A DNA stretch of 63,651 nucleotides, the filler included, from Deltaproteobacteria bacterium (GTDB lineage: Bacteria > JAUYMQ01): assembly GCA_030698575.1 (NCBI GenBank). It is 13 parts of 13 records of this genome, joined end to end, with 100 filler letters (N's around TTAATTAATTAA, not from the genome) between each part and the next. Parts side by side here need not be neighbours in the genome. Positions count along the whole stretch, not along the records: positions 14,737 to 19,702 come from JAUYMQ010000056.1; 12 more parts are not named here. One strand, written 5' to 3'. How positions within the stretch are numbered: the stretch's first letter is position 1; each line of letters begins with the position of its first letter. The notes beneath the pieces were generated by a model. The model made no database searches. It worked only from the letters and a program-made list of their open reading frames with translations, and was not told where the DNA came from. A program made the position numbers and the translations under genes. This document shows, one piece after another, positions 9,672 to 53,914 of this stretch.

Positions 9672-9775
9672 TGCGNNNNNNNNNNNNNNNNNNNNNNNNN
9701 NNNNNNNNNNNNNNNNNNNTTAATTAATTAANNNNNNNNNNNNNNNNNNNNNNNNNNNNNNNNNNNNNNNNNNNN

Positions 9776-12700
9776 AGCCCGTGTACCAGGTCCAGCCCCC
9801 CTGGCCAACGTGGCCTTCAAGCGAGTAGACATCGGACGCCACGACGTAGGGCTCGACCCTGTAGCGCTCGACAGCCTCAGGTGTTCGCGCGTGCTCGACC
9901 GGACTGAGCATCCGAAGGATCTCGACCGCCTTGTCGCCATCCCCCCGGCGAGCAAACGCCATCGCTACCCAGAGCGCAGCGTGGGTAAACTGCCCGCCGT
10001 TCTCGCGGACGCCCGGCGGATAACCTTTGACGTAGCCCGGATCAACCGGCGACTTCTCGAAGGGAGGTGTGAAGAGCAGGACCAGCCCCTCGGCCGAAAG
10101 CACGAGGCGCTCTTCTACCGCTCGCAGCGACTTCTCGACGCGCGACGGGTCCGCAGCGCCGGAGATGGAGGCCCACGACTGCGGCAACGAGTCAATCCGC
10201 GCCTCGGTGTTTTCCCGCGAGCCGAGCGGCGTCCCATCGTCGAAGTAGGCTCGCCGGTACCAGTCGCCATCCCAAGCGTGCGCCTCCACAGCGGCCGTCA
10301 GGCGCTCGGACTGCGCCCGATGCTTCAGCGCCTCCTCGGTCTGCCCTCGGCCCTCCAACAGCTCGGCGAAGCTGCCCAGAACGTCTACGAGGAACCAGGC
10401 CAGCCAGACACTCTCGCCCCGGCCTTCTACGCCAACCCGGTTCAGCCCGTCGTTCCAGTCGCCCCCGCCGATGAGGGGCAAGCCGTGTGGACCGGAAGTG
10501 GCGCCCCGGGCGATTGCTTGCCGGCAGTGGTCGAGGAGAGAATGCGTATCCAGTGAGACTGCCGGCACGAAGTAGGCTTCACGCTCGCCGTCTGCCAGCG
10601 CGGGCCCCTCGAGAAAGGGCATCGTCTCATCGAGGATTCCCGCGTCGCCGGTTACCCGAACATACTGCGCCGTGGCGTAGGGCAGCCAGAGCATGTCGTC
10701 CGAGATTCGCGTCCGCACGCCGGCGCCCGACTGAGGGTGCCACCAAAGCTGGACGTCGCCTTCAACAAACTGGCGGGAAGCTGCGGCGATGATCTGCTGC
10801 CGGGTGACCTCCGGGGCAGCGTAGACCAGGGCGAGGCAGTCCTGAAGCTGGTCGCGAAAGCCGACAGCGCCGCCCGACTGATAAAAGGCCGAGCGGGCCC
10901 AGACGCGGCATGAGAGGGCCTGGTAGAGAAGCCAGCGGTTCAGTAAGAAGTTGGTGGCCAGGTCCGGCGTCTCCACCTGGACCGCCTCCAGCAGGTGGTC
11001 CCACCAGGACCGGACCTCCTGCAACGCCTGCTCGACCCGGACCGGGTCCCTGAAGCGTTCGACCAACCGCAGCGCCTCGGCCATGTCCGGGGCCTCCCCG
11101 AGAAGGAAGGTGATTTCCTCCTCCTGCCCGGGGTCGATCTCAACTGTCACCTGGAGCGCTGCGCAAGGATCCAGCCCCGCGCCGGCCTCACCGGACAGCG
11201 TTTGGCGCAGCAGAGCGGCAGGTCGGGTGAAGGAGCCATTGCGACCGAGGAACTCGGTCCGGTCGGCAGTGAAGCACTGTGGCAGCGGGCTCGCGCTGGC
11301 GAACGCTACGCGGCTCCCGAAGTCCGCATGGTAAGCGTTGCGGGCCAGCAGCGTCCGGCTTGCAGCGTCCCAGGTCGTAACCACGTGCATCTGGGTTTCC
11401 TCACGGTTGGTACCGAGGACCCAATCAGAGTAGGCGAAGACGCTGAGCCGGCGGCGGCGCGACGAGCGGTTGCGAAGCCGAAGGCGCTGGACCCGGACCG
11501 GTGCGCCTCCGGCCTCGTCTAGAGGCACAAATGTCACCAATTCCTGCTCCACGGCGTGGCTGTTATGCTCGAACACAGTATATCCCTGGCCGTGCCGCGC
11601 CCGGTAGGCGTCCTCCTCCCGGATGGGCGCGGAGGTCGGTGTCCAGAACACCCCCAGGTGCTCGTCGCGAATGTAGATAGCATCACCGGGCGGGTCGCTC
11701 ACCGGGTCGTTGGACCAGGGGGTGAGGCGGTTACCCTGGGAGTTCGAGGCCCAGGTGAAGCCTGACCCGGACTCCGAGATCAGGGCGCCGAAACCCGGGT
11801 TGGCGAGCACGTTCACCCAGGGCGCGGGAGTGCGCGTCCCGGGCCCAAGGTAGATCGCGTACTCCCGGCCGTCGGGGGTGAAGCCACCCACGCCGTTGAA
11901 GTACGGCAGCTCCAGGAACGGCAACGGCGCTGAGGATTCCTCGTTGGCGCGCCGGCCGACTGCGAGGGGAGGCGGCAGCTCCCGCACTTCCGTCGGCATC
12001 CCGAGCTGCTGAACGAGAGGCCCTCGTGCGGCTATCAGCGCCACCCGGGCCACGGCGAAGAGAAGCGCCAGGTCGTTTTCCGCCAGCGGTTCGGCCGGGC
12101 GCAAGAAGATGCCACCGGGCTGGTCGAGCGGAGTGAATGGGGCGTAACGCTGGATGACTTGCCGAAGATCCCACTGGAGCCGCTGCTCGTAGCCTCCGGC
12201 CTCCTCGTTGAGGATGACGAGGTCCGCTCGGAACCCAAGGAGCCTCCAGTAGGAGTGAGCAAGGAGCGCCTCCCCCACGACCTCGATGTCGCGCCGGTCG
12301 CCGATCGGGACGAGGAGGATCGGGAGATCGCCCGAGATGCCGTGACCCCAGAGCCCGGACTGGCCCAGCCGGTTCCGGCGGAGTTGAGGCTCGGAGGCTC
12401 GCATCCGGGCGCTGGGATAGAGAAGGTGACCGGCGAGCTGCTGGAAGCGCCGGAGGTCGTCGGCTGTTAGCAGGGGCTGACGAGCGAGCAACTGTCCCTG
12501 GTTGACAGCGGCTTCGACGGCAGCGCGGGCGGCCGGGAGGCTCTGGTACTTATCGACGAGAGCCATGACCTCCCCGCGACTCCCGGCAGCTGCAGTCACG
12601 AACGCCAGCCCCACGCGTTCTCCCGGGTCAAGCGTTAGCTCGCAGCGCAAGCTGAATATCGGGTCGAGAACCGGCCCGACGTTGCCCTTGAGGCCGGCGT

Positions 12701-14636
12701 CGAGCGCCAGAGGGTTCTCCATGCTCCTTCCCCGCCCGATGAAACAAGTCCGGTCGGTCTCGTAGCCTGTAGCCGCGACCGCAACTTGCGGAGAGTCCGC
12801 CAGCGCCAAGACGTGGCCGGCCCAGACCAGGGGGTCCTGCGTCGAGCGAGGCTTGCGCCGGGCGAGAAGAGCCCCCGGGGCGGGGAGGAACTCGGTCTCA
12901 ACGAAGAGCTTGCTGAAGGCCGGATGGGCCAGGTCCGCGCCGTGGGGGGCTAGCGACAGCTCGACGTAGCTCGTCACCTGGAGGCGACGCCGCCGGTTCG
13001 AGTGGTTGGCAAGCGTCAGGTGGCGGACCTCGACGGCGTCCTCCGGAGAGACCGCAATCTCTGTCGTCACGTCGATCCCGAAGTCGCGCCGCTCGAACTC
13101 GGCCCGGCCGGGGATGAGCCTGGCCTCGTAACGGGATGCAGGCCTCCTGGTCGGCTGATAGGTGGCCGACCACAACGTGTCACGGTCCAGGTCTCTGATG
13201 TAAAAGAACATACCATAGGGGTCGAGCGTGGTGTCTGCTCGCCAGCGCGTGATGTCCATGTCGCGCCAGCGGCTGAAGCCGCCTCCCGTCGAAGTCACCA
13301 TCACGGTGTATGCGCCGTTCCCGAGCAGGAGCGTCGCCGGAGCCAGGGCGTCGATAGGAGCCGTTGGCTCGACCGGACGGGCCACCGGCAGCCTGGCGGG
13401 GGCCTCACCGCGCTCGGTCGCCTTCACCAGCAGGGGCGCCACAGGAATTCGCTCGAAGAGGAGTGGCTCGACGGACTGGACCCGCCGGTCGGCATGGAAC
13501 CGGCGCTGCATGACTGCGGAGTTCAGCACGTTGTCAAGCGCTAGCAGCGTCATGCCCTGATGATGAGCCATGTAAGTGCGTACGACCACGCCGTGATGGC
13601 CCTTCGGTTGGCGCCGCCGCGTATAGTCGATCGATTCGAAGTAGCCGTAGGCGCCACACAGTCCCAGGCGGCCGAGCCTCTTGAGGTTCGCCAGCGCCGC
13701 GGCGGGATTGGCCATCAAAGCCAGTGCACTGGCGTAGGGCGCCACGACCAGGTCGTCGGCGAGCCCCCGTTTTAGCCCGAGGCCTGGCGCCCCAAAAGCC
13801 TGGTACTGGTAGACTTTGTTGGCGTCGACGGCGGCGAAGGCGCACTCAGACATGCCCCAAGGGACGCCCTGCTCCAGCCCGTAGTCGATCTGGAGCCCGA
13901 CCGCCTCCCGGTAGGCCTCGTCGAGGAGCGTGTGCCGGTAGCTACGGGTCAGGAGCACCGGCATCAGGTACTCGAACATCGTCCCGCTCCACGAGAATAG
14001 CACCCGGTGACCCTGGGCCGACCCGAAGAAGCGTCCCAAGGCGAACCAGTGCTCGCCCGGCACGTCTCCCCGGGCGATCGCCACCAGGCTCGCCAGTCGG
14101 GCCTCACTGGCAAGGAGGTCGTAATATGACGAGTCGAACTGTCCGCTCCCGACGTTGTACCCGATGGTGAACAACCGGCGTTTCGGCTCGTAGAGGAAGC
14201 GCATGTTCATGGCGTCAGCAAGGCGCTCCACTCGGGCGATCAGCCTCTCGACCCGTTCCACGAAATCATCAGTCACCGGCAGGGACGCCGAGGCCTCCGC
14301 ACCAGGAGTCTTGAGGACGCCGGCCGGGGAGCCACGGACAGCGGCGGCAAGCCAGGCCGTCACCTGGCGCTCGACCTGAGCCGCCCAGTAGCCGGCGTTG
14401 GCGCCCGCGGCGCTATGGCCAGGCGGGGTGAGTGGGTCTTCCCGAAGCCCGTCGGTGAGTTCCCGCGCGGGCCCAGCGGCCGCTCGCAGACGTCCAATAA
14501 TCCCTTCACGCTGGTCTGGCGGGTTGGCGAAGAGCCTTATGAGGTCTCGCACGGCGTCCTCGATCACGCCAACGCCGGCATTCCTGGGGTGCTCCGAGGC
14601 CGGCCCTACACCGAAAGTGACGAGCGCCAGCGTGTC
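9776..14636 (-). CDS. Cyclic beta-1,2-glucan synthase/phosphorylase (NdvB/Cgs-like, glucoamylase-like plus GH94 domains), truncated at both ends
   Basis: YDLLASEARL, SWSGTMFEYLMP, YQSGGAVGFRDQLQD, GDWNDG, GVRENGGQFTH, GWTWYTG; frame open across the contig. Confidence 0.93.
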
Positions 14637-14861
14637 NNNNNNNNNNNNNNNNNNNNNNNNNNNNNNNNNNNNNNNNNNNNTTAATTAATTAANNNNNNNN
14701 NNNNNNNNNNNNNNNNNNNNNNNNNNNNNNNNNNNNCGAAAAGTGGGGGTTTGCGGGTACGGAATAGTCGCGCCAACGGTCTTCCACCAAACTTTCATTT
14801 TGGTATCATGCCCGCGCCCGACGGCGCTGCTCGCCGAGTTAGTCCCTCCGAGGAGTCCGAC

Positions 14862-15407
14862 ATGACGAACGTTTCGACCGAGACCCGGGCGGCCTCTTCT
14901 GACGAAGCCGCCGCGCGAGCACATGACCTCGCGGTCATCATCGAACACGGTGTCGTTGCGGGGATGATCGGCGCTGCCGTCGTCGCTATCTGGTTCCTGC
15001 TGTTCGACGTCCTGCTCAGGGAGGCGTTCTACACGCCGTCGCTCATCGGCAGTGTCATCTTCCAGGACCTCGACGTCCATCTGGTCACGGGCGTGAACAC
15101 CAGCATGGTGTTCGCCTACTCCGGCCTCCACGGCGCCGCGTTCCTGATTGCGGGCACGGTGCTTGCATGGATGTTCTCGCTCGTCGAGCGCAACCCGCAG
15201 TTCGGACTCGTGCTCGTGCTCCTTTTTCTTCTTTTTCAATCGGTAATCTTCGGCTTCGAGGCCGCGATCGTTCCCAATCTGGTGGGCGCCCTTGGCGCAT
15301 GGGCCGTCGCCATGGCGAATCTTCTCTCGGCCGTTGCGATGTTCTGGTTCCTGCTGCGTCGCCGCCCGCGCGCGATGGCTCGCCTTCGCGAAAGCTGGGA
15401 AGAGTAG
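14862..15407 (+). CDS. Hypothetical integral membrane protein
   Basis: GAGGAG before ATG 14862; about 4 hydrophobic segments; first gene of the oxidase operon. Confidence 0.75.
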   Translation: MTNVSTETRAASSDEAAARAHDLAVIIEHGVVAGMIGAAVVAIWFLLFDVLLREAFYTPSLIGSVIFQDLDVHLVTGVNTSMVFAYSGLHGAAFLIAGTVLAWMFSLVERNPQFGLVLVLLFLLFQSVIFGFEAAIVPNLVGALGAWAVAMANLLSAVAMFWFLLRRRPRAMARLRESWEE

Positions 15408-15421
15408 GGAGATAGTCCTTT

Positions 15422-16129
15422 ATGGAGAACTGGCTTCCCGAGGCCGCATCCAGCTACGCAGCCGACCTTGACGGGCTGCTGATCTTCATCAGCGCCATCG
15501 TGGGCGTCTGGTTCATCCTCGCCGAGGCAGTGCTGATCGGGTTTGCGGTGGCCTTCCGGCGAAAGCCCGGCCAGAAGGCCGCCTACCTGCCCGGGCGGTC
15601 GCTGCGAGCCATGTCCTGGGTCCTGGTTCCGTGCGTGGTCGTCCTGGGATTCGACCTCGTCATCGACGGTGTGGCCGCGCCCATCTGGGACAAGGTGAAG
15701 ATCGAGATTCCCGAGTCGGACGAGATCGTGCGGATCACGGCTGTGCAATGGGCCTGGAAGTTCACCCTGCCCGGCCCCGACGGCGAGCTTGGCAGCGATG
15801 ATGACGTCGACGTCATGAGCGAGCTGCACGTCCCCGTCGGGAAGGTCGTCGAATTCGAGCTCACCGCCAACGACGTTATTCACTCGCTCTTCGTCCCCCA
15901 GCTCCGCCTCAAGCAGGACGCCATCCCCGGCCGGGTGATCAAGGGGTGGTTCGAGGCCACCAAAACCGGCACCTTTGAGATCGTCTGCGCGGAGATCTGC
16001 GGCCTGGGCCACACGATCATGAAGGGGAAGATGGTCATCGAGAGCGAGGAGGCATACAGCGACTGGGTAAAGTCAAAGATGCCGGAAGCAGCCGCATCGA
16101 TCCCTGCTGAGGAGAGAAACGAAGGATGA
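15422..16129 (+). CDS. coxB: Cytochrome c oxidase subunit II (CuA)
   Basis: Two TM helices, QWAW, DVIHS and CAEICGLGHTIM CuA motif. Confidence 0.95.
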   Translation: MENWLPEAASSYAADLDGLLIFISAIVGVWFILAEAVLIGFAVAFRRKPGQKAAYLPGRSLRAMSWVLVPCVVVLGFDLVIDGVAAPIWDKVKIEIPESDEIVRITAVQWAWKFTLPGPDGELGSDDDVDVMSELHVPVGKVVEFELTANDVIHSLFVPQLRLKQDAIPGRVIKGWFEATKTGTFEIVCAEICGLGHTIMKGKMVIESEEAYSDWVKSKMPEAAASIPAEERNEG

Positions 16130-17802
16130 GCACCGCAGCGATTGCGCACCCCAAGAGCTTCTGGCGGGAGTACGTTTTCTCGACCGATCACAAGACGATC
16201 GCGAAGCAGTACCTGTCCACGGGAATCTTCATGGCGCTCGTGGGCGGCCTGCTCGCCTACGTCATGCGGATGCAGCTGGCCTATCCCGGCCAGGCGATTC
16301 CGGGCTACGGCACCATCGACCCACAGAGCTACAACGCCGTTGTGACGATGCACGGGACGATCATGATCTTCTGGGTCGCCATGCCGATTCTCCTGGCGGC
16401 CTTCGGGAACTTCCTGATCCCCCTCATGATCGGCGCGGCCGACATGGCCTTTCCGCGCCTCAACATGCTCTCCTACTGGATCTTTTTCCTGAGCACGGTC
16501 GTGCTGCTCGCATCCTTCTTCGTGCCGGGCGGCGCGGCGGCGGGCGGCTGGACGAGCTACCCGCCGCTCTCGGGCAGCGCCGCATATTCAGGGGGCCAAT
16601 GGGGGGTGACACTCTGGCTTCTCGCCGTGGCGATGGAATTCGCGGCGTTCCTGATGGGCGGGATCAATTTCATCACAACCGCCATCAACAACCGCGCGCC
16701 CGGGATGAAGCTCTTCGACATGCCCCTCATGGTCTGGATGCAGCTCGGGGCCAGCATCATCTTCCTCTTCTCGGTCGGCCCGCTGATTGCCGGCGCGGTG
16801 ATGCTCATTCTTGACCGCGTGGCCGCCACGGGATTCTACAACCCCGCCACGGGCGGCGACCCGATTCTGTTCCAGCATCTCTTCTGGTTCTTCGGGCACC
16901 CGGAGGTATATGTCATCCTCCTCCCGGGGTTCGGCGCCGTGGCCGAGGTCCTGCCGGTCTTTTCGCGAAAGCCTTTCTTCGGCTACCGAATGATGGTCTA
17001 TGCGACCATCATCACCGGCGTGCTCTCCTTCATCGTCTGGGCCCATCACCAGTTCATCGCCGGAATTGATCCAAGGCTCGCCACCGCCTTCAGCATCACG
17101 ACGATCCTCATCTCGGTGCCGATTGCGGTGATGACCTTCGCCTTCATCGCGACGCTTTACAAGGGTTCCATAGAACTCAAGACACCGATGCTGTTCGCCC
17201 TGGGAACGCTCGTGGTCTTCCTGCTGGGCGGGGTCACGGGAATCCACCTCGGCACCGCAGCGACCGACATCTATCTGCACGACACCTATTTCGTCGTGGC
17301 CCATTTCCACTACACGCTGATCCCGCCCGTCTTTTTCGGGTTCTTCGCGGCCTGGTACTACTGGTTTCCCAAGATGTTCGGTCGAATGCTGAACGAGGGA
17401 CTCGGGAAGGCGCACTTCTGGCTCACCTTCATCTTCATGCACGTGACCTTCATTCCGATGTTCCTCCTCGGTTTCGGCGGGCACCACCGGCGCATCTCGA
17501 ACCCGCAGTTCTTCGAGGCCATGCAGGGCCCCGAAGCGGAGCGATTGCAGATTATCGCCACCGCGGGCGCCATCGGAATCCTCCTCTCTCAGATTCCCTT
17601 CGTCGTGAACTCCGTCCTGTCGCTGCTGCGCGGAGCGAAGGCGCCGGCGAACCCGTGGCAGGCGAACACGCTCGAGTGGACGGTCCCCTCGCCGCCCCCC
17701 CACGGCAACTTCGAGACGGTCCCGCAGGTCTACCGCGGGCCCTACGAGTACAGCGTGCCCGACCGCGTCGATGACTGGTTTCCCCAGGACGCCAAGGTCT
17801 GA
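16126..17802 (+). CDS. coxA: Heme-copper oxidase subunit I, A-family (K-channel residues substituted)
   Basis: TDHK, MHGT, DMAFPRLN, FGHPEVY, WAHH, AHFHY, RR; see findings. Confidence 0.95.
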   Translation: MSTAAIAHPKSFWREYVFSTDHKTIAKQYLSTGIFMALVGGLLAYVMRMQLAYPGQAIPGYGTIDPQSYNAVVTMHGTIMIFWVAMPILLAAFGNFLIPLMIGAADMAFPRLNMLSYWIFFLSTVVLLASFFVPGGAAAGGWTSYPPLSGSAAYSGGQWGVTLWLLAVAMEFAAFLMGGINFITTAINNRAPGMKLFDMPLMVWMQLGASIIFLFSVGPLIAGAVMLILDRVAATGFYNPATGGDPILFQHLFWFFGHPEVYVILLPGFGAVAEVLPVFSRKPFFGYRMMVYATIITGVLSFIVWAHHQFIAGIDPRLATAFSITTILISVPIAVMTFAFIATLYKGSIELKTPMLFALGTLVVFLLGGVTGIHLGTAATDIYLHDTYFVVAHFHYTLIPPVFFGFFAAWYYWFPKMFGRMLNEGLGKAHFWLTFIFMHVTFIPMFLLGFGGHHRRISNPQFFEAMQGPEAERLQIIATAGAIGILLSQIPFVVNSVLSLLRGAKAPANPWQANTLEWTVPSPPPHGNFETVPQVYRGPYEYSVPDRVDDWFPQDAKV

Positions 17803-17822
17803 GGCCGGGGCAGGAGAAACGA

Positions 17823-18404
17823 ATGGCCGAATATCCTCGCGCCGAGCACATCCTGAACGAGAGCACCGAGGTGCCGACGGGCCGGCTCGGAATCTGGTGG
17901 TTCCTGGCCTCGGAGGTCGTGATCTTCGGCGGCCTGATCGCCACCTACGTGCTCTTCCGGTGGCAGCACCCCGAATGGGCCGCCGAGGCATCCCATACCC
18001 TCAACTTCGCCGGGGCGCTGAACACCATGGTGCTGCTCACGAGCAGCCTCACCGTGGTGCTGGCCCACGCGGCGATTACTGAAGGGAAGTTTCAGCTAGC
18101 CGCTCGAAATCTCGGCTTCACGCTGCTCGGCGGGGCCATCTTCATGGGCGTGAAGGCCTACGAGTACAGCCACGAGATCGCCGCGGGCTTCGTTCCGGCA
18201 AGAAGCCTCTTCTGGTCTTTCTACTACACCATGACGGGACTTCACGCGCTGCACGTCCTGGGCGGCATGATCGCCATCGCGACCGTGCTCGTAGCCGTCC
18301 GCAAGGGTCATGCGCCCCAGCGGGTGGAGTACGTGGGACTCTACTGGCACTTCGTGGACATCGTGTGGATCTTCCTCTTTCCGCTTCTCTATCTGGCGAG
18401 CTGA
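17823..18404 (+). CDS. Cytochrome c oxidase subunit III family protein
   Basis: FLASE..FG, NTMVLLTSS, TGLHALHV, LYWHFVDIVWIFLF. Confidence 0.92.
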   Translation: MAEYPRAEHILNESTEVPTGRLGIWWFLASEVVIFGGLIATYVLFRWQHPEWAAEASHTLNFAGALNTMVLLTSSLTVVLAHAAITEGKFQLAARNLGFTLLGGAIFMGVKAYEYSHEIAAGFVPARSLFWSFYYTMTGLHALHVLGGMIAIATVLVAVRKGHAPQRVEYVGLYWHFVDIVWIFLFPLLYLAS

Positions 18405-18416
18405 CGGGGAATTGAC

Positions 18417-18728
18417 ATGACGCAGAATACGGCTTCGGTCGAGCACGGCCATCCCAATTACGTGGCCATCTGGGGCATTCTCGTTGGCGCGCTCCTGGTG
18501 TCGCTGCTCATGGGATTCATCCAGCTTCCCGTGGTTACGGTCGTCCTCATCTTCTCGATCGCGGCCGTGAAAGCCTACCTGGTGTTGAACTACTTCATGC
18601 ATCTCAAGGCCGAACCCTTCTTCGTCGTGGTGATCGTCGTGGCCGGGCTCGCCTGCCTCTACTTTCTCTTCTTCGGCCTCGTGCCGGACATCGTTTTCTC
18701 TCCCGACAAGCTGAGGGCAGAGCATTGA
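18417..18728 (+). CDS. Prokaryotic cytochrome c oxidase subunit IV
   Basis: KAYLVLNYFMHL signature, three TM helices. Confidence 0.88.
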   Translation: MTQNTASVEHGHPNYVAIWGILVGALLVSLLMGFIQLPVVTVVLIFSIAAVKAYLVLNYFMHLKAEPFFVVVIVVAGLACLYFLFFGLVPDIVFSPDKLRAEH

Positions 18729-19309
18729 GCAGCACGGGGACGCCCGTCGCCCGGAGCGAGGTCATCGTCCCGAGTCGCGTGCTCGGCATGGCGCTCTTCA
18801 TCGCGACGGAGGCGCTGTTCTTTGCGGGCCTTATCAGCGCCTTTGTCGTTCTGCGCGCCCAGGCCATCGATTGGCCGCCCGCGGGACAGCCGCGGCTCCC
18901 CATCGGCGTGACGGGTTTCAACACGCTCGTTTTGCTGGCAAGCGCCTGGACGATGCAGCAGGCCGCAGCGACGCTCAGGCGCGGCGAGCCGCAAGTGCGC
19001 CGGCTCATCATGATCACCGCTGCTTTGGGCGCCCTCTTCGTGGGGATCCAGGGTTACGAATGGGTGAACCTCGTTCGCTATGGCCTGACAACCGGCTCGA
19101 GCCTCTACGGCGCGACCTTCTACACCATCGTGGGGGCGCACGGCCTCCACGTGCTGGCGGCCGTTATCTCACTCATCGCGGCGGCGCTCATCGCGCCGGC
19201 CCGGTCGCGGGAGGGGACCGACAGGACCTGGCTCGATCCCTTCCGCATGTACTGGTTCTTCGTGGCCGGCGTCTGGCCGGTTCTCTACGTCCTGGTGTAC
19301 CTGTCATGA
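18725..19309 (+). CDS. Second cytochrome c oxidase subunit III-like protein
   Basis: FIATE..FFAG, NTLVLLAS, GAHGLHV, YWFFV; TTG start overlaps previous stop. Confidence 0.87.
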   Translation: MSSTGTPVARSEVIVPSRVLGMALFIATEALFFAGLISAFVVLRAQAIDWPPAGQPRLPIGVTGFNTLVLLASAWTMQQAAATLRRGEPQVRRLIMITAALGALFVGIQGYEWVNLVRYGLTTGSSLYGATFYTIVGAHGLHVLAAVISLIAAALIAPARSREGTDRTWLDPFRMYWFFVAGVWPVLYVLVYLS

Positions 19310-19593
19310 ATCGAATTGTCGGCGATCGAAGCACGGGACGGTTGCGGCGGGCACTTCGCGCGCTGCCGCTTCTCGCGGCGCCACTCCTGGCGCCACGCGC
19401 GGCGCTGGCCTGCGCCGTCTGTTTCGATCTGACGAGCCGCGCCCGCGACGCCTATTACGGCACGACCATTCTCCTGATCCTCCTTCCCTTCGGGATCCTG
19501 GGAGGGCTCATCTACTGGCTGGTCCGGGCAACCCGCCGGCAATCATCCGCCGACGGCGGCGCGCCTGTCGGTGGCGATCCTCGCCGGATCTGA
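19306..19593 (+). CDS. Small membrane protein with CxxC after signal peptide
   Basis: ATGA overlap; ALA-CAVCF followed by one TM helix. Confidence 0.65.
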   Translation: MNRIVGDRSTGRLRRALRALPLLAAPLLAPRAALACAVCFDLTSRARDAYYGTTILLILLPFGILGGLIYWLVRATRRQSSADGGAPVGGDPRRI

Positions 19594-19678
19594 GCCGCGC
19601 GCGGCGACCCTCCGGTCGTAAGTCAGTTGACGCCAGTCTTTATTTTCGCCTTCGGAAGCGCGTCAGTCCGGCGCCTCC

Positions 19679-19699
19679 CACCTGTCATTGCGAGGAGCG
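19679..19699. repeat. Partial copy of the REP-like element at a contig end
   Basis: CACCTGTCATTGCGAGGAGCG identical to 9572-9592. Confidence 0.8.
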
Positions 19700-19853
19700 G
19701 TANNNNNNNNNNNNNNNNNNNNNNNNNNNNNNNNNNNNNNNNNNNNTTAATTAATTAANNNNNNNNNNNNNNNNNNNNNNNNNNNNNNNNNNNNNNNNNN
19801 NNGCGTCAAGCGCCGTAGCGCCGCTACCTGCTCGTCAGGCAGCCGATCGCTCA

Positions 19854-21756: not shown

Positions 21757-22040
21757 CAGCAGATTTCCGGTAGATATGGCAGTAACCTGCGCGTCGCAGG
21801 GGCAATGTAGAACTTGGAAAAGTCGTCCAGCGACAGGAACCGGGAGTCCGACGGAACTTCCATCACCGCCTCTGCTCCCCTAAACCGCAGGGTGATTTCC
21901 TCCAACTCCAGATCGCCGACCCATCGACTACGCGCGGACACTTCCTTGTCGACCTGAGCGATGCCGTCGTCCGTATGGCGTTTGCAAAGCAGCAACACCG
22001 CCTCGCGCCTGACGGTTTCTAGTGCGAGCGGCGTACTCAT
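21756..22040 (-). CDS. Hypothetical phage protein
   Basis: 94-aa ORF with TGATG overlaps at both ends. Confidence 0.65.
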   Translation of the reverse strand: MSTPLALETVRREAVLLLCKRHTDDGIAQVDKEVSARSRWVGDLELEEITLRFRGAEAVMEVPSDSRFLSLDDFSKFYIAPATRRLLPYLPEIC

Positions 22041-22654
22041 CAGGTCAGCTCGTGCTCTTTCGCCGGCGTCAGCGTCAGCGTGCCCGTGTCCTCGTCCAGC
22101 ACACGCCCGCGGGGCTGCCCTGACGCGACCAGGCGGAGGAGGTCGCCGGCCGCACCGAGCAGCCCCGCATCAATCCTGACGCTTACCTCACGCTCCACCT
22201 TCAGCGTGTTCCCGTAGCGCTGCCGGTCAAACTTTTCAGCCAGCCACTTGCGCGTCTCGATCTGCAACCGGCGGTGCTCGATCATGTCGCCCTCGGACAC
22301 CTCTAGCGAACCGTCCGGCCGCGTCTTCGTCTTGACGCCCTTCTCGGGAGTGTCCGCAATGTCGATCGCCTCCAGCGCCAAATCCGCCGCCCTCACCTTC
22401 AGCGCCGCGTCGTACAGGTCCGTATGCGTCGTCGTAAACCATTCCACAAACCGACCCTTCGGCACCGCCCACTGCTTCGCAATCTCCTTCAGCGACTCCC
22501 CATCGCACAACCGCTGAAAAATCACCGACGGCGCACCAGCGTCCGCCTTCACCACCTCCAGCCTCGCCATCGGACCGGGATCACCAACGGGCAGCGTCAT
22601 AACCCTCTCCACCGACGCGCCCGAAGCAGCTTGCTGACAACCCACTTCCGCCAC
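22040..22654 (-). CDS. Phage terminase small subunit (Sf6-like)
   Basis: IFQRLCDGESLKEIA HTH, EAIDIAD, RRLQIETRKWLAEK...YG pattern typical of this TerS family. Start uncertain. Confidence 0.8.
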   Translation of the reverse strand: MAEVGCQQAASGASVERVMTLPVGDPGPMARLEVVKADAGAPSVIFQRLCDGESLKEIAKQWAVPKGRFVEWFTTTHTDLYDAALKVRAADLALEAIDIADTPEKGVKTKTRPDGSLEVSEGDMIEHRRLQIETRKWLAEKFDRQRYGNTLKVEREVSVRIDAGLLGAAGDLLRLVASGQPRGRVLDEDTGTLTLTPAKEHELT

Positions 22655-26561: not shown

Positions 26562-27998
26562 CTAATACTTGGTACGCACATAAGTGCCGATGCGCCCGGG
26601 GCACTCATAGCCTCGGGGATGCTTGTGCGGGTTCAACGAACCGTCCATCGATTTCCGCTCGAATGTCTTGCGGCAAACAGTACAGCGGTAAACGTAGCCC
26701 GGACTGGTGCCCCGTGATGGCGCCGCGCGGCGCGGCCGTGGGGATGTCCACGAACCCGAGGATTCTCTTCCTCCGGTACTCGGCCGTGACGCTGCCGGGG
26801 CAACGGGCAGCGGACCTTCCGACGTGAGTTCCACGAGATAGCGTGGCGCGAACGACTGCCCGGTGACTGATGCGCCCTGCATGCGATCAACGCGGTACGA
26901 GCGGTGCTCACCGGAATCGCTGCGAATCGCGTGCAGCACGAAATTCCCCTCGGCCGTCTGCCGAAGCGAATAGGGCTCGATGCGGCGCACGTTGCCGTCA
27001 TAGGTCAGATCGACGCAGAGTTGGTTCGCCGCAGCGAAGCGGATGATTTCGAGCGGCGCACGCGCCCGGAGCGGAACGCCCATTGGCAACACACGGCTGC
27101 GAATGGCGATGTCGGCCGACGCAGGCTCGATGCGAGCGCGCTGCGGCGCTTCCACCCCGCCCACAATCCAGGCAAAGATGTCCGGCAACGCGGCCCAGAA
27201 ATCCGCCACAGGTGGCAGCATGGGAAGCTGGTGACCAAGCATGTTCGCCCACATCGCTTCGAGATCAGCGCGATGCGGCTGGAGCGCTTCAAACGTCGGC
27301 AATGCGATGCCCTTGTAGGCGCATTTCTGCGCAAGGACATCGCGCAGCACCGCGGGCGACGGGCGGCTGTCGCCGTGACGATAGAGATTCACAACGTCGT
27401 AGAGATCGCGGGGACGAGTCCGCTCGCCAAGCGCGCGAACCTTCTCCCCGAAGGCTTCTTCGTAGGCGTAGCTGTTGATCCAGAGTCCGTCTTTAGGACG
27501 GTCGGAATACGGATGGAAAACCTCGCGCCGCACGGCGGGCAGCACGAGTTTTTCGTCCGCCGTGAGATCGAGCTTGATTTTCGGCCACCCGCCCGCGCCT
27601 GACGTGGGCGATACCGGCCCGCGACAGCCGATCCTGCCCTGACAGGAGAGGCGACCGCGCGGGTTCTGGTAGAAGTCGAAGCCCAGTTGTTCGGCAGGGA
27701 CAGCGAGGCCGGATTCCTCCGCGACCCAGGTGACGACCTCGCCGAGCACGCGCCGCAGAAAGCCCTCCTCAAGCTGGCGCTCGTCGCGCAGCGTGAAGTC
27801 AAGGTCTTCGGAAAATCTATACGTCTCGAAGTAGCATTTCTTGAGGCAGGTGCCACCCTTGAACACCCAGGCGTCGGCAAGATCGGGATGGGCGTTGATT
27901 CCGGCAAGCAACCAGCCGAGGACGTAATCCTTCTCGACAATACTGGGCAGCAGGCCGAGCGCGGAGGCCGTTTCTAGGATTTCGCGCTTGTCGATCAT
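26562..27998 (-). CDS. AbiEii nucleotidyltransferase toxin fused to a WYL-like domain and C-terminal zinc finger
   Basis: VEKDY, FKGGT, RFSEDLDF, EKVRAL, RPRDLYD; then RRIEPY...RSYRVDRM; then CTVC...H.H...C. Confidence 0.88.
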   Translation of the reverse strand: MIDKREILETASALGLLPSIVEKDYVLGWLLAGINAHPDLADAWVFKGGTCLKKCYFETYRFSEDLDFTLRDERQLEEGFLRRVLGEVVTWVAEESGLAVPAEQLGFDFYQNPRGRLSCQGRIGCRGPVSPTSGAGGWPKIKLDLTADEKLVLPAVRREVFHPYSDRPKDGLWINSYAYEEAFGEKVRALGERTRPRDLYDVVNLYRHGDSRPSPAVLRDVLAQKCAYKGIALPTFEALQPHRADLEAMWANMLGHQLPMLPPVADFWAALPDIFAWIVGGVEAPQRARIEPASADIAIRSRVLPMGVPLRARAPLEIIRFAAANQLCVDLTYDGNVRRIEPYSLRQTAEGNFVLHAIRSDSGEHRSYRVDRMQGASVTGQSFAPRYLVELTSEGPLPVAPAASRPSTGGRESSGSWTSPRPRRAAPSRGTSPGYVYRCTVCRKTFERKSMDGSLNPHKHPRGYECPGRIGTYVRTKY

Positions 27999-28798
27999 GT
28001 GGTGCGTTGCTTCCAGCGCTCCGGCACCCAGAGCCGCCATGCGGTGACCAGATGCCTGCACGAGAGTGCGGGATCAAGCCGGGTGTAGCCCTGCGTCAGC
28101 CGCTCGCGGCAGGCGGCGGCGAGTTCCGGGCTTTGCAGGCGTGTTTCGGCCAGAAAGCCAAGCCGCTTGAATATCGCGCCGTTCCCGAATTGCTCTGCGT
28201 TGCGGATCAAAAGTCCGCCGTCATAGGTCGGTGTTTTCTGGTATGCGGCGAGGCAATCGGCGACGTGATCGATGCCGCCGCCGGTGTCGGGCATCGCCAG
28301 CATGTCGATCAGGGTGCGCGCCGGGTCCGAGATATTCACGCGCGTTGTGCCGCGCCAGACGGGTTTGAGGCCGAAGAGTCGCTTCTTCGCAGCGTGATGC
28401 AGCAGGAAGACAACGCCCTGTGCTGTGGCGCGTTTCGCGCTGATTCGGCGCGTCGTGAAGACGACTGTTTCATTGAAGAGCTGTTCGGTCAGCTCCCAAT
28501 GGTGAGCGGCAGTCCATCCGCCGATATAGCATTGACCAAAGAGCGTCGGAACCAACACCCACGGGTCTCCGACAACCTGCTCGCTACCGGAGAGATCGAG
28601 CGGCACGGGGACATACAGTCCGTGCCCGATGCGCCGCAGCCAGCCTTGCTTGCGCCAGCGCGATAACAGCTTCGCGGCGGCAGTCCGGTCCAGGTCGAGC
28701 GTCTGCGCAGCGGCGTCGATCGACACCACCTCCTTGGTGGCGCGCAGCACGGCGGCGAGCCGGGCACGCGAGGCTGGCAGGGGTGTTTCGCTTCCCAT
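27995..28798 (-). CDS. AbiEi-family type IV antitoxin
   Basis: wHTH GWLRRIGHGLY, YIGGWTAAHHWELTEQ, SDPARTLID; ATGA coupling to toxin. Confidence 0.88.
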   Translation of the reverse strand: MGSETPLPASRARLAAVLRATKEVVSIDAAAQTLDLDRTAAAKLLSRWRKQGWLRRIGHGLYVPVPLDLSGSEQVVGDPWVLVPTLFGQCYIGGWTAAHHWELTEQLFNETVVFTTRRISAKRATAQGVVFLLHHAAKKRLFGLKPVWRGTTRVNISDPARTLIDMLAMPDTGGGIDHVADCLAAYQKTPTYDGGLLIRNAEQFGNGAIFKRLGFLAETRLQSPELAAACRERLTQGYTRLDPALSCRHLVTAWRLWVPERWKQRTT

Positions 28799-38048: not shown

Positions 38049-38300
38049 CAGCGGCGCGTTCAGCTCGAGCACCTGGGGCGCTTCGCCGCCGTCGGCTGCC
38101 GAGACGGTGACGTCGACCTTCCCGCGGGAAACGGCCTGCTGCACCTGCCCGGCCAGCCGGGATTCGATTTCGGCAAAACGGCGCGGCAAGCGCACACGCA
38201 CATCGGAGTGGCGATGGTTGACAGAGCGCATCTCGACGCTGAAACGAACTCCGCCCGTCTCGAAAGTGGCCGTGCCAAACCCGGTCATGCTTCGGATCAT
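38049..38300 (-). CDS. YicC/YloC family endoribonuclease, 3'-truncated
   Basis: MIRSMTGFG, RSVNHR, RGKVDV. Confidence 0.9.
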
Positions 38301-38315
38301 GTCAGGATTACTCCG

Positions 38316-38735
38316 TCAGGGGGCGCGCGTTCCAGTGCGCCCGTAGGCATCCTCGAGCCGGACGACGTCCATGAGCTGCGGCGTGGAAACCTCGAGCACC
38401 TCGCAGTCCGAGACCGCGGTCATGCGGTGCTTCGTGCCGGGCCGGATCCGGTATCCCTCTCCCTTTCGCAGGCGGCGCGTGATCATGCGGCCGCGCTCGG
38501 AAACCTCGAAATCCATCGTGCCGGAGAGCATGTGAATCGTTTCGTCCTTCCAGCGGTGGTACTGAAGGGACAGCCGGCCGCCCTTCTTGATCCGCAGGAT
38601 CTTCCCCACGTACTTCGGCGCGCGCGCCCAGATGAGCTCGGAGCCCCAGGGCTTCTTGACTACCTGGGTGGAGCCTCGCCGCAGATGGCCCAGGCTCTCC
38701 TTGAAAGCGGGGGTTGCTTTCCTCTTTTTCTTCAA
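38316..38735 (-). CDS. Cupin (mannose-6-phosphate isomerase type II-like)
   Basis: KPWG, LSLQYH..KDET, EVSTPQL.DVVRLEDAYGR. Confidence 0.85.
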   Translation of the reverse strand: MKKKRKATPAFKESLGHLRRGSTQVVKKPWGSELIWARAPKYVGKILRIKKGGRLSLQYHRWKDETIHMLSGTMDFEVSERGRMITRRLRKGEGYRIRPGTKHRMTAVSDCEVLEVSTPQLMDVVRLEDAYGRTGTRAP

Positions 38736-38786
38736 AGCTTGGATCTCGCGGGCTGCCGGCGGGGTGGCCGGATCGGTTGCAGGGGG

Positions 38787-44509: not shown

Positions 44510-45486
44510 GATCCGGCCCCCGCCCGTCTCCGGCGAGCCGCTCCCGCCAGCCCCCATCCGGCGGGGCAGCCGCGCAGGTGCCACAGCAGCATGCGCGCGC
44601 TCTCGGCCGCCTTCCGCCGGGCCCGCGCGGCGCGCCCGAGGGTCACCACCGAGATCGCCGAGAAGATAACGAGATTGAGGGCGAGCTTGATCAGCCGGAT
44701 CGAAATCACGGCCAGCCGCTGCACCGGCCCGCGGTTCTTCCCGAAAAAGCGGTAGAGCGACCTGAGGTACTCGATCCGCGTCTCCAGCGGCAGCTTCTTC
44801 TTCGAGCTTCCCCCCGAAAGATGCGTGATGCGGGCGTCAGGCACATGGACCACCTTCCAGCCCGCCTCCCTCATGCGCGCGCACCAGTCGGTTTCCTCCA
44901 TGAAAAAAAAGTATCCGTCGTCCATCGGGCCGACCTGCTCGAGCGCCTCACGGCGGACGACGAGGCAGGCGCCGAGCACTGCCTCGACCTCGATCGGCTC
45001 GGCGTAGTCCTGCCGTTTGGAGGGATAGCGCCCGGGAAGCATGATGCGCAGAAGGCTCACGTTAAGGATCTCGGTGGCCAGCGATGGAAAGTTGTGGATG
45101 GAGTTCTGCTTGGAGCCATCGGGGTCGAGCAGCTGCGGAGCGCACAGGCCCGTCCCCGGATTGGCGTCCATCCAGGCGACCAATCGCTCGAAGGCGCCCG
45201 GAAGCACCACGGTGTCGTCATTCAGAAGCACGGCGTGGCGGCCCTTCGCCTCCCGGAGCCCGATGTTGTTGCCGCCGGCGAAACCAAGGTTCCGCGGGTT
45301 GCGGATCACCTTCACCCCGGGGAACTCCGCTTCGACCGCAGCGGCGCTGCCGTCCTCCGAATCGTTGTCGACGACGATGACCTCGAAGCGACTTCCCTTC
45401 ACCTCGCGGAAGATCGAAGCGACGGCGCGGAGAAGAAGCTCGCGCGCGTTCCAGGTCACGATGATGATCGAGAGATCGATTCCCAT
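44506..45486 (-). CDS. Glycosyltransferase family 2 (rhamnosyltransferase-like)
   Basis: SIIIVTWN, VVDN, NLGFAGGNN, LLNDD, EETDWC. Confidence 0.92.
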   Translation of the reverse strand: MGIDLSIIIVTWNARELLLRAVASIFREVKGSRFEVIVVDNDSEDGSAAAVEAEFPGVKVIRNPRNLGFAGGNNIGLREAKGRHAVLLNDDTVVLPGAFERLVAWMDANPGTGLCAPQLLDPDGSKQNSIHNFPSLATEILNVSLLRIMLPGRYPSKRQDYAEPIEVEAVLGACLVVRREALEQVGPMDDGYFFFMEETDWCARMREAGWKVVHVPDARITHLSGGSSKKKLPLETRIEYLRSLYRFFGKNRGPVQRLAVISIRLIKLALNLVIFSAISVVTLGRAARARRKAAESARMLLWHLRGCPAGWGLAGAARRRRAGAGS

Positions 45487-45508
45487 GCCGCTCCCTGGCC
45501 GCGACTTC

Positions 45509-48054: not shown

Positions 48055-48101
48055 CCCCGAACAATTCCCGCGGCGCGCAGCTCAGGCGCGGCGCCACATC
48101 G

Positions 48102-53901: not shown

Positions 53902-53914
53902 GGACGGTCTGCTC

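What the first reader, a model, noticed from the sequence alone, without database searches (positions are those of the whole stretch)
16126..17802. A-family heme-copper oxidase with concerted natural loss of the K proton channel (K362M equivalent)
Seen: metal ligands, the HPEVY Glu/Tyr and D-channel residues (DMAFPRLN, GINF) are intact. With a constant offset of 26 to R. sphaeroides numbering (H258=H284, H307/308=H333/334), the K-channel positions are S299->A273, T359->I333, K362->M336 (codon 17131-17133) and S365->A339: VPIAVMTFAF instead of VPTGIKIFSW. Established: the laboratory K362M mutant loses nearly all O2 turnover but keeps peroxide-driven activity. Inference: this intact operon may encode a single-channel oxidase, a peroxidase-type enzyme or an enzyme for another substrate. 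I cannot tell whether this subfamily has already been catalogued.
Basis: partly seen in the sequence, partly recalled or inferred. Interest (0 to 1): 0.8.

Follow-up and report, generated by a model that had tools for sequence, protein, structure and literature searches.

The report
Cytochrome oxidase lacking the K-channel lysine
This is an intact respiratory cytochrome c oxidase operon from a widespread, unstudied branch of the family in which the usual lysine-based proton path is missing in every member, a known oddity in other lineages that nobody has yet explained by experiment.

Summary
CoxA (16126-17802) aligns without gaps to solved A-family oxidases. It has Met336, Ile333, Ala273 and Ala339 where R. 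sphaeroides has K362, T359, S299 and S365. CoxB has Ala63 at the E101(II) entrance position.

This is not decay. None of 194 family sequences from more than ten phyla has the Lys, while all metal ligands, E260, Y262 and the D-channel entrance are invariant. The operon coxB-coxA-coxC-coxD-coxC'-small CxxC gene is conserved.

The upper serines S200/S201 are Ala/Phe, and an invariant Glu171 found only in this family sits at the S197 position. The family has also gained hydroxyl residues on helix VII (T294, T297, S301) and upper helix VIII (T325, S330).

A nested sister subclade adds Glu335. That form is the only terminal oxidase found in one Oligoflexales chromosome.

K-less A-family oxidases are already catalogued for iron oxidisers and other lineages (Degli Esposti 2020/2021). 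This clade is not in the tables I could read.

Most likely it is a working aa3-type oxidase with a lysine-free K-type path. A D-channel-only enzyme is the main rival.

The parts
14751..15407 (+). orf218, a membrane protein of unknown family upstream of coxB. It may be cut at the contig start, and whether it belongs to the operon is uncertain.
   Evidence: No Pfam or NCBIfam hit. Found next to coxB only in L001 (51% identity), with one distant hit in L028. The contig starts at 14737.
15422..16129 (+). coxB, subunit II with a CuA motif and no haem c domain. Ala63 (15608-15610) stands at the position of the K-channel entrance Glu, E101(II).
   Evidence: PF00116 62.6 bits. TIGR02866 scores 135.4, below its cut-off of 147.7. 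The motifs HSLFVP at residue 154 and CAEICGLGHTIM at residue 189 were located. The alignment to R. sphaeroides subunit II is. The position is variable across the family.
16126..17802 (+). coxA, subunit I of an A-family haem-copper oxidase. Its start overlaps the coxB stop (ATGA).
   Evidence: PF00115 480.5 bits. TIGR02891 scores 627.8, below its cut-off of 670.75. Foldseek TM 0.85-0.90 to solved A-family subunit I chains.
16636..16650 (+). Helix IV segment E171-F172-A173-A174-F175. A family-only Glu stands at the S197 position; S200 is Ala and S201 is Phe. This is a remodelled upper D channel.
   Evidence: E171 is present in 194 of 194 family sequences, 0 of 58 K-bearing and 0 of 38 other K-less representatives. 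F175 is present in 189 of 194. Equivalence is by the alignment plus recalled R. sphaeroides numbering.
16942..16944 (+). Ala273, at the position of S299.
   Evidence: A95 L20 G2 S1 T1 C1 among the 120 closest proteins. Ser in 55 of 58 K-bearing representatives.
17005..17028 (+). Helix VII hydroxyl stripe T294, T297, S301. K-bearing relatives have M, I and G at these positions.
   Evidence: T297: T in 155 of 194 family sequences, against Ile in 58 of 58 K-bearing representatives. S301: 192 of 194. T294: 129 of 194. Helix VII spans 287-308 in the model.
17050..17052 (+). Gln309, giving 'HHQF' in place of 'HHMF/Y'. This is the family signature directly after the CuB ligands H307/H308.
   Evidence: Q in 121 of 126 and 68 of 68 family sequences. 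Met in 55 of 58 K-bearing representatives.
17113..17142 (+). Helix VIII segment S330-V-P-I333-A-V335-M336-T-F-A339. Lys and Thr are lost; Ser330 is gained.
   Evidence: Codons read. Lys in 0 of 194 family sequences. S330 in 194 of 194, against 1 of 58 K-bearing representatives.
17823..18404 (+). coxC1, a short subunit III.
   Evidence: PF00510 75.8 bits. Conserved after coxA in related loci.
18417..18728 (+). coxD, a prokaryotic subunit IV.
   Evidence: PF03626 34.2 bits. Blast-detected in 68 ORFs across the 80 loci.
18725..19309 (+). coxC2, a second subunit III paralogue. Its start overlaps the coxD stop.
   Evidence: PF00510 81.0 bits. 75 ORFs across the 80 loci.
19306..19593 (+). orf95, a small conserved protein with a signal or lipobox-like 'A-C-x-x-C' and one TM helix. 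Its start overlaps the coxC2 stop. It is a putative assembly factor or extra subunit.
   Evidence: 35 homologous ORFs, 32 of them directly after coxC2; the C-x-x-C and the TM segment are conserved. No Pfam or NCBIfam family. The Atlas gives only 'hypothetical protein' clusters.

Best explanation
The operon encodes a functional aa3-type cytochrome c:O2 oxidoreductase. It belongs to a distinct, widely distributed A-family clade marked by the signature HHQF and an invariant Glu171. The operon is coxB-coxA-coxC-coxD-coxC'-small CxxC protein, most like the 'a-III / two COX3' operon type.

Shown: the catalytic core is fully conserved. This covers six His ligands, Tyr262, Glu260, the Arg pair and the D-channel entrance. 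The canonical Lys-based K pathway is absent throughout the clade: K362, T359, S299 and S365 of subunit I, and E101 of subunit II.

Inferred: the protons needed for the reductive half-cycle reach Tyr262 and the binuclear centre along a lysine-free path of hydroxyl residues and water in the same inter-helical space. That path would now be lined from helix VII (T294, T297, S301) and upper helix VIII (T325, T326, S330), as in the Lys-free K-analogue channels of B- and C-family oxidases.

Also inferred: the D channel, remodelled with Glu171 below Glu260, still serves the oxidative half-cycle and pumping.

In genomes that carry the query-type form (no Glu335) it sits beside other oxidases, so it is probably an alternative branch of the respiratory chain.
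For: Ligands and catalytic residues are invariant. H258, E260, Y262, H307, H308, H393, H395, D106, N113, N95 and N181 are present in 120 of 120 closest proteins and 194 of 194 family sequences. H76, R455/R456 and H385/D386 are likewise conserved, with 1-2 exceptions or gaps.

The fold matches solved A-family subunit I chains: TM 0.85-0.90 for all 50 listed hits.

The operon is conserved across 80 loci from Myxococcota, Gemmatimonadota, Eisenbacteria, Acidobacteriota, Verrucomicrobiota, Bdellovibrionota, Spirochaetales, SAR324, Rokubacteria, Nitrospinota and others.

A two-domain cytochrome c gene lies directly upstream of coxB in 4 of 12 loci examined. Two of these are isolates carrying the query-type form (L049, L070). 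CtaB and CtaA flank the operon in SAR324 locus L032.

The Glu335 form is the only PF00115 match in one chromosome-level Oligoflexales genome, which has no cytochrome bd.

The replacement residues at 333, 336 and 339 vary among hydrophobic and small residues. The gained hydroxyls, by contrast, are conserved: S330 in 194 of 194, S301 in 192 of 194, T325 in 194 of 194, T297 in 155 of 194 against Ile in 58 of 58 K-bearing representatives. They are absent from the nearest K-bearing relative, Ralstonia a-III CoxN at 47% identity.

S/T at 330 accompanies K loss in 88 of 103 K-less rows against 1 of 60 K rows. In about 4 of 7 independent contrasts it changes opposite to K, and never in the same direction.

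Near-identical pieces of coxB (2 differences in 223 nt) and coxC1 (1 in 201 nt) occur in contigs of a metatranscriptome library. This is weak evidence, because DNA carry-over is not excluded.
Against: No coordinates or hydration analysis were available. That the helix VII residues face the K cavity rests on the recalled equivalence of position 301 with the C-family cross-linked Tyr.

The lower half of the proposed path has no conserved polar residue in the query subclade. A273 and position 63 of CoxB are non-polar or variable.

T297 is Thr in only 71% of the query-type group, with Ala in 19%.

The independent-contrast test is not significant (median p 0.125, 7 pairs).

All nine query-type genomes searched also hold other HCOs, with 2-6 PF00115 matches each. 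Physiological necessity is therefore not shown for this form.

CoxA scores below NCBIfam's equivalog cut-off, 627.8 against 670.75.

No member has been studied biochemically, as far as my searches show.
Confidence: 0.5

Rival explanations
1. It is a single-channel (D-only) oxidase. All chemical and pumped protons enter through the D channel. The family-only Glu171, one turn below Glu260, acts as a second carboxylate relay or proton store. That lets the D channel also serve the reductive half-cycle, so the K region is truly closed.
For: Glu171 is invariant and unique to the family: 194 of 194 against 0 of 96 non-family representatives. It coincides with loss of S200/S201 and bulky Phe172/Phe175, which argues for a purposeful rebuild of the D channel. 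The D entrance residues D106, N95, N113, S116 and N181 are 100% conserved. Five K-path positions are non-polar in the query. Residues at 333, 336 and 339 drift among hydrophobics, as expected for an unused path.
Against: No O2-reducing HCO without a K-type channel is known; the Murali et al. 2024 passages say A, B and C families all keep one. The gained, conserved hydroxyls at 294, 297, 301, 325 and 330 would then have no explanation. A sister subclade re-introduced an ionisable Glu335 together with Lys283 in the same region, which suggests the region is still used.
Confidence: 0.27
2. It is an oxidase that takes some or all chemical protons from the periplasmic side, as cNOR does. It would be only weakly electrogenic and would serve as a non-coupled electron sink or O2 scavenger.
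For: There are family-specific changes in P-side elements: an insertion at 59-63 (P-G-x-G), R317, F446 in place of a conserved His, and H453/H454 before the Arg pair. In query-type genomes it co-occurs with other oxidases.
Against: The D-channel entrance and Glu260 are under strict conservation, which would not be needed for periplasmic proton supply. No P-side acidic channel residues were identified. The Glu335 form is the only terminal oxidase found in one genome, which argues for energy conservation at least there.
Confidence: 0.08
3. It is not an O2 reductase but a peroxidase-type enzyme or a reductase of NO or another substrate. These were the first reader's second and third options.
For: By recall, not tested here: the K362M laboratory mutant keeps peroxide-driven turnover. 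Several NOR families evolved from O2 reductases.
Against: The cross-linking Tyr262 and the CuB His triad are invariant, whereas described NOR families lack the Tyr. There is no linkage to N-oxide genes in the 12 loci examined. Neighbours are cytochrome c and haem A genes. It is the sole HCO in one genome.
Confidence: 0.05
4. It is a decaying or non-functional paralogue, or an assembly or sequencing artefact.
For: The contig is only 4966 bases long, from a metagenome bin. CoxA and CoxB score below the NCBIfam equivalog cut-offs.
Against: All six ORFs are intact, with overlapping start and stop codons. Identity is 58-82% across more than ten phyla, with invariant catalytic residues. The same substitution class occurs in 194 of 194 relatives. 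The region is recovered in contigs of several public runs.
Confidence: 0.02

Closest known systems
A1 'subtype a-III' COX operon (doublet of COX3 homologues; coxMNOP-like), for example the Ralstonia wenshanensis p56D2 operon KOL96_05305-05285
   Same: It is the nearest annotated relative, with CoxN 47% identical over 559 columns. It has the same subunit set: II, I, two short COX3 paralogues and COX4 (definition of a-III). It shares HPEVY, S301 and the distinctive C-terminal tail.
   Different: It keeps the K channel ('IPTALKVYNW'), and a-III is listed as 'K-channel yes' in Degli Esposti's Table S1. It has no Glu171, no T294/T297/S330, and HHMF rather than HHQF. Its subunit II is longer (1158-nt gene). 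The gene order is III-III'-IV rather than III-IV-III'.
K-channel-less A-family oxidases catalogued by Degli Esposti et al. (rus-operon aa3 of Acidithiobacillus and Acidiferrobacter, Thioclava, Acidimicrobiia, Chloroflexi, CyoCAB subtype, the 'KC channel' group of Elusimicrobia, Calescamantes and Methylacidiphilum, Bacteriovorax, archaeal COX1-3)
   Same: Natural substitution of K354 (Paracoccus numbering) by hydrophobic residues, together with loss of COX2 E78. D-channel residues are kept and the active site is intact (preprint passages; supplementary Tables 1 and 3 read in full).
   Different: No row of their table has this family's pattern (Y280 S291 K354 T351 S357 = Y A M I A). Many of those clades have extra N-terminal TM helices and other operon types. 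In my trees this family is a separate clade with 100% support. The Glu171/Phe175 change in the D channel is not mentioned in the passages and tables I read. Their supplementary figures (PDF; bioRxiv supplements closed) could not be seen and may contain members.
R. sphaeroides laboratory mutants K362M (3om3) and E101A of subunit II (6ci0)
   Same: The same residues stand at the same positions. These mutants are the top Foldseek hit for CoxA and the top phmmer hit for CoxB.
   Different: The mutants are single changes in an otherwise canonical enzyme and are nearly inactive with O2. That is recalled; the bovine K319M effect is described in the PMC6115622 passage. The natural family carries many co-adapted changes and is under purifying selection.
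Lys-free K-analogue proton channels of B-family (ba3) and C-family (cbb3) oxidases
   Same: A proton path to the active-site Tyr made of Ser, Thr and Tyr residues plus water, with no Lys (for the general statement; residue details recalled). Position 301 corresponds to the helix VII Tyr of C-family enzymes (recalled).
   Different: This protein is phylogenetically and structurally A-family, keeps the helix VI Tyr, and keeps a D channel. No His or Tyr ladder like that of cbb3 is present.
COX of Ferrigenium straubiae (coxBA11C)
   Same: An A-family COX reported to lack the conserved K channel in subunits I and II, with the physiological meaning stated to be unclear (2026 preprint passages).
   Different: It has a different operon (coxB-coxA-cox11-coxC) in a betaproteobacterial iron oxidiser.

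Membership tests
Haem-copper oxidase superfamily, A family (subunit I) | Six His ligands for low-spin haem, high-spin haem and CuB | tested here: met
   H76, H258, H307, H308, H393 and H395 are present, and invariant in 194 of 194 family sequences.
Haem-copper oxidase superfamily, A family (subunit I) | Cross-linking Tyr on helix VI (HPEVY) with the helix VI Glu (A1 type) | tested here: met
   H258-P-E260-V-Y262 is present in 120 of 120 and 194 of 194 sequences.
Haem-copper oxidase superfamily, A family (subunit I) | Twelve-helix subunit I fold | tested here: met
   AF2 model with pLDDT 87.5 and pTM 0.90. Foldseek TM 0.85-0.90 to R. sphaeroides, P. denitrificans and bovine subunit I.
Haem-copper oxidase superfamily, A family (subunit I) | D channel (D132, N121, N139, N207, S142, S197/S200/S201; numbering recalled) | tested here: inconclusive
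   The entrance and Asn residues are present and invariant. S200/S201 are A174/F175 and S197 is E171.
Haem-copper oxidase superfamily, A family (subunit I) | K channel (K362, T359, S299 in subunit I; E101 in subunit II) | tested here: not met
   The residues are M336, I333 and A273, and CoxB A63. Lys occurs in 0 of 194 family members.
NCBIfam TIGR02891 CtaD_CoxA (equivalog) | Score above the curated cut-off | tested here: not met
   627.8 bits against a cut-off of 670.75. Pfam PF00115 is far above its cut-off.
Cytochrome c oxidase subunit II (CuA type) | CuA ligand motif H...C-x-E-x-C-G-x-x-H-x-x-M (motif recalled) | tested here: met
   H in HSLFVP at residue 154 and CAEICGLGHTIM at residue 189. 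PF00116 62.6 bits.
COX operon subtype a-III (Degli Esposti) | Doublet of short COX3 homologues in the cluster | tested here: met
   Two PF00510 genes are present. Here COX4 lies between them, unlike the Ralstonia operon.
COX operon subtype a-III (Degli Esposti) | Canonical K channel (listed as 'yes' for this subtype) | tested here: not met
   Table S1 compared.
Nitric oxide reductases of the HCO superfamily | Absence of the cross-linked Tyr, with an altered metal-B site | tested here: not met
   Tyr262 and the three CuB His residues are invariant. The criterion is taken from the Murali et al. 2024 passages.
K-channel-modified A-family oxidases (Degli Esposti 2020/2021) | Non-conservative substitution of K354 in COX1 and E78 in COX2, with the D channel kept | tested here: met
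.

The most novel reading that the evidence does not exclude
This clade is the first natural O2-reducing haem-copper oxidase that works with no K-type channel at all. It would be a D-channel-only A-type enzyme in which a Glu171-Glu260 tandem supplies protons in both half-cycles. That would overturn the view that every oxygen reductase of the superfamily needs a K-type path.
Probability: 0.25. Interest if true: 0.8.

Novelty: new variant of a known kind. Interest (0 to 1): 0.45.

Why it matters
The K-channel lysine is one of the textbook essential residues of cytochrome c oxidase, and the K362M mutant is nearly dead. Natural K-less A-type enzymes have been noticed in sequence surveys but never characterised.

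This clade is large and phylogenetically broad. It carries a clean, invariant signature: Glu171, Phe175, Gln309, Ser301, Ser330 and Thr297. It occurs in at least two cultured Verrucomicrobiota (Pelagicoccus sp., Puniceicoccaceae K14). It also has a sister form (Glu335 plus Lys283) that is the sole oxidase found in one genome.

That makes it a practical system for asking how an A-type oxidase delivers reductive-phase protons without the lysine, and whether the D channel can do both jobs. It also matters for annotation, because these genes are currently labelled 'cbb3-type' or generic 'subunit I'.

Tried and rejected
(1) Own-genome search: no genome is held for the window. The window is 13 short contigs joined by spacers, so gene neighbours beyond 14737-19702 carry no meaning.

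(3) coxMNOP membership: tblastn against plasmids found no family member, with a best identity of 47%. The sister cluster P0126 is also only about 43% identical to rhizobial ctaD. The KF707 paper on coxMNOP says nothing about the K channel.

(4) Phrase searches for 'lack(s/ing) the K-channel/K-pathway' and 'K-channel lysine' gave one paper and none respectively.

(5) Association of K loss with S301, T297, loss of H446, M309 or P454 by independent contrasts: there were too few contrasts (7) and none was significant.

(6) Whether the K loss is shared with the K-less sister cluster P0126/P0230: FastTree support was 80, and the node is unresolved in IQ-TREE quick.

(7) Expression: only small pieces occur in one RNA library, and DNA carry-over is not excluded. 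Parts of the stretch had no cover in that run.

(8) Cavity or hydration analysis of the model: the tools return no coordinates, so this was not done.

(9) dN/dS was not computed. The nearest DNA relative is 78% identical at protein level, so synonymous sites would be saturated.

(10) The Atlas search for orf95 gave only unnamed clusters.

(11) Degli Esposti's 'K^C' column scheme could not be applied rigorously, because I had no reliable alignment to a C-family sequence.
Full report
**What is in the window**

The window is 13 contigs joined by N spacers. The finding lies on one 4966-base contig, 14737-19702 (the same length is recorded for the protein's contig).

On the + strand the contig carries:
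- orf218 (14751-15407)
- coxB (15422-16129)
- coxA (16126-17802)
- coxC1 (17823-18404)
- coxD (18417-18728)
- coxC2 (18725-19309)
- orf95 (19306-19593)

Start and stop codons overlap at three junctions. Pfam assigns COX2, COX1, COX3, COX4_pro and COX3. NCBIfam's equivalog models match, but all fall below their curated cut-offs; CtaD_CoxA scores 627.8 against 670.75. This is therefore a divergent A-type oxidase.

**Checking the observation**

phmmer alignments to solved chains run without a gap from the HPEVY motif through helix VIII. They put VPIAVMTFAF under VPTGIKIFSW. The codons are ATT (Ile333), ATG (Met336) and GCC (Ala339). Ala273 stands at the S299 position.

The AF2 model is confident (pLDDT 87.5, pTM 0.90), with helices VI 259-280, VII 287-308 and VIII 316-344. 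All 50 listed Foldseek hits are A-family subunit I chains. The first is the R. sphaeroides K362M mutant 3om3_A. Helices VI-VIII contain no Lys.

CoxB adds a fifth loss. Ala63 aligns with E101(II), and the best solved match is the E101A mutant 6ci0_B.

**Is it a subfamily trait?**

Yes. Among the 120 closest proteins (65-100% identity) position 336 is M37, T37, I35, V6, F2, L1, S1, A1, and never K. Position 333 is I, V or F. All ligand and D-entrance residues are invariant.

In genome representatives, the best 80 of 597 related loci (58-78% identity) come from Myxococcota, Gemmatimonadota, Eisenbacteria, Acidobacteriota, Verrucomicrobiota, Bdellovibrionota, Spirochaetales, SAR324, Rokubacteria, Nitrospinota and others. 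They include two isolates.

77 full-length family ORFs were recovered from these loci, and none has the Lys. The operon order is kept: blastp found 81 coxB, 83 coxA, 77 coxC1, 68 coxD, 75 coxC2 and 35 orf95 ORFs in the 80 loci.

In the 50%-clustered library the family collapses to two representatives (764.6 and 758.3 bits). The next hit scores 515.5 bits at 48% identity.

**Family structure**

Merging 114 of the 119 other close proteins (5 under 530 aa were dropped), the 77 locus ORFs, the query and 2 representatives gives 194 family sequences.
- 126 have V, I or L at position 335. This is the query type.
- 68 have an invariant Glu335 ('VPIAEM'), coupled with Lys283, Arg114, Gln118 and Gln231.

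Two trees were built.
- FastTree used 163 rows: the query, 23 close proteins, 39 loci, 2 second-operon genes and 98 of 150 representatives with at least 90% coverage.
- IQ-TREE quick used 57 rows.

Both give the family 100% support. Both place the Glu335 clade (100%) nested among Glu-less branches, so Glu335 is most parsimoniously a later gain. Relations to the nearest clusters are unresolved. Those clusters are K-bearing P0127 and P0123-P0129, and K-less P0126/P0230 and P0136/P0193.

**What else changed**

Against 58 K-bearing and 38 other K-less representatives, the family shows the following.
- Glu171 is invariant: 194 of 194, against 0 of 96.
- Phe172 replaces Gly.
- Ala174 and Phe175 stand at the S200/S201 positions.
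- Gln309 replaces Met, giving HHQF.
- Ser330 is present in 194 of 194, against 1 of 58 K-bearing representatives.
- Ser301 is present in 192 of 194; K-bearing representatives have Gly in 48 of 58.
- Thr297 is present in 155 of 194; K-bearing representatives have Ile in 58 of 58.
- Thr294 is present in 129 of 194.
- Thr325 is present in 194 of 194.
- Phe446 replaces His, and Arg317 is conserved.
- A five-residue insertion lies at 59-63.

Equivalence to R. sphaeroides S197, S200 and S201 follows the alignment plus recalled numbering.

The CoxB position 63 is variable. In the Glu335 type it is L23, Q11, E11, H10 and others among 65 sequences. In the query type it is Q8, A1, E1 among 10.

The K state changes at least 8 times on the 163-row tree. 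Ser/Thr330 goes with K loss (88 of 103 against 1 of 60), but with only 7 independent contrasts the test is not significant.

**Physiological context**

I picked 69 of 116 candidate flanking ORFs from 12 loci and scanned them.
- A cytochrome c of about 210 aa with two PF00034 stretches lies directly upstream of coxB in 4 loci (L005, L024, L049, L070).
- SAR324 locus L032 has UbiA (CtaB) upstream, and CtaA plus DUF420 downstream.
- L039 and L022 carry a second, canonical cox operon next door.
- No nitrogen-oxide genes were seen.

Whole-genome scans gave the following.
- The Oligoflexales chromosome (G002, Glu335 type) has a single PF00115 match and no cytochrome bd.
- All nine genomes with the query type (G001, G004-G010 and the query's nearest relative G006) have 2-6 PF00115 matches.

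Contigs of a metatranscriptome library hold near-identical pieces of coxB and coxC1. This is weak evidence.

**Literature**

I searched full text with seven term sets and one on operon types.

- Degli Esposti et al. Sources: the 2020 preprint (passages) and Front Microbiol 2021 (passages; three xlsx supplements searched, with Tables 1 and 3 read in full).
  - They already describe A-family COX1 lacking K354, with COX2 lacking E78.
  - The lineages are iron oxidisers, Thioclava, Acidimicrobiia, Chloroflexi, the CyoCAB subtype, Bacteriovorax, a 'KC channel' group and archaea.
  - They propose C-family-like ('K^C'), 'hybrid' or 'modified' channels.
- No row of their table shows this family's pattern, and 'a-III (2 COX3)' is listed as K-channel yes. 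Their figure supplements were not readable.
- A 2026 preprint notes a K-less COX in Ferrigenium, with the consequence unclear (passages).
- Murali et al. 2024 state that all three O2-reductase families keep a K-type channel (passages).
- The role of the Lys is summarised in PMC6115622 (passages).
- The nearest annotated relative is a Ralstonia megaplasmid a-III-type operon (II, I, III, III', IV). Its CoxN is 47% identical, keeps the Lys, and lacks Glu171, Thr294, Thr297 and Ser330.

**Reading**

Shown:
- An intact, conserved oxidase operon under purifying selection.
- Clade-wide absence of the canonical K residues.
- A remodelled upper D channel with a new invariant Glu.
- New conserved hydroxyls on helices VII and VIII.

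Inferred:
- It reduces O2 with cytochrome c as donor.
- Reductive-phase protons use a lysine-free hydroxyl and water path in the old K region. That helix VII positions 301, 297 and 294 face that space rests on the recalled correspondence of position 301 to the C-family helix VII Tyr.

The main rival is a D-only enzyme with a Glu171-Glu260 relay. The data cannot separate the two. Peroxidase or NO-reductase readings and pseudogene decay are poorly supported.

Noticed in passing
L024, L026, L005 and 64 other loci; in window numbering, CoxA residue 335 (17128-17130 in the query, which has Val): A nested sister subclade (68 of 194 family sequences) carries an invariant Glu one residue before the lost Lys ('VPIAEM'). 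It is coupled with Lys283, Arg114, Gln118 and Gln231. In one Oligoflexales chromosome this form is the only HCO, and no cytochrome bd is present.
   Followed up: partly
window 19306-19593 (+): A small conserved gene follows coxC2. It has a signal or lipobox-like 'A-C-x-x-C' and one TM helix. There are 35 homologues in related loci, 32 of them directly after coxC2. It has no known family and could be a copper-handling assembly factor or an extra subunit.
   Followed up: partly
representatives P0151, P0157, P0164, P0166, P0186, P0190, P0194 and others: Another cluster of long (about 840 aa) A-type subunit I proteins has Gln or His at the Lys position. It also has Glu at the positions of G198 and N207. 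This is a different, apparently independent rebuild of both channels.
   Followed up: no
The best solved-structure matches are laboratory mutants: K362M (3om3) for CoxA by Foldseek, and E101A of subunit II (6ci0) for CoxB by phmmer. The natural protein shares the mutant residues.
   Followed up: yes
window 1-63651: The window is 13 contigs of 2.8-16 kb joined by 44 N + 12 bases + 44 N spacers. ORFs that run into spacers (for example 9720-14567, 1615 aa) are cut, and adjacency across spacers is meaningless.
   Followed up: yes
window 22040-22654 (-): An ORF with a phage Sf6-type small terminase domain (PF20901, 57 bits) lies on a 2.9-kb contig next to split transketolase genes. It may be a prophage fragment.
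   Followed up: no
window 26562-28061 (-): A 499-aa ORF carries an AbiEii nucleotidyltransferase toxin domain (type IV toxin-antitoxin; PF08843, 118 bits).
   Followed up: no
window 54653-57058 (+): An 801-aa protein has two radical-SAM stretches and a CofH/MqnC C-terminal region. It looks like a fused CofG/CofH (FbiC-like) enzyme or a menaquinone-futalosine enzyme.
   Followed up: no
window 38049-54116: A 16-kb contig is dominated by envelope glycan genes: two GT1 glycosyltransferases, a PMT_2 mannosyltransferase-like protein, a DegT aminotransferase and a Kdo/WaaP-family kinase.
   Followed up: no
names given by sources: Members of this A-family clade are labelled 'cbb3-type cytochrome c oxidase subunit I' in several public annotations. 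That is the wrong family.
   Followed up: no
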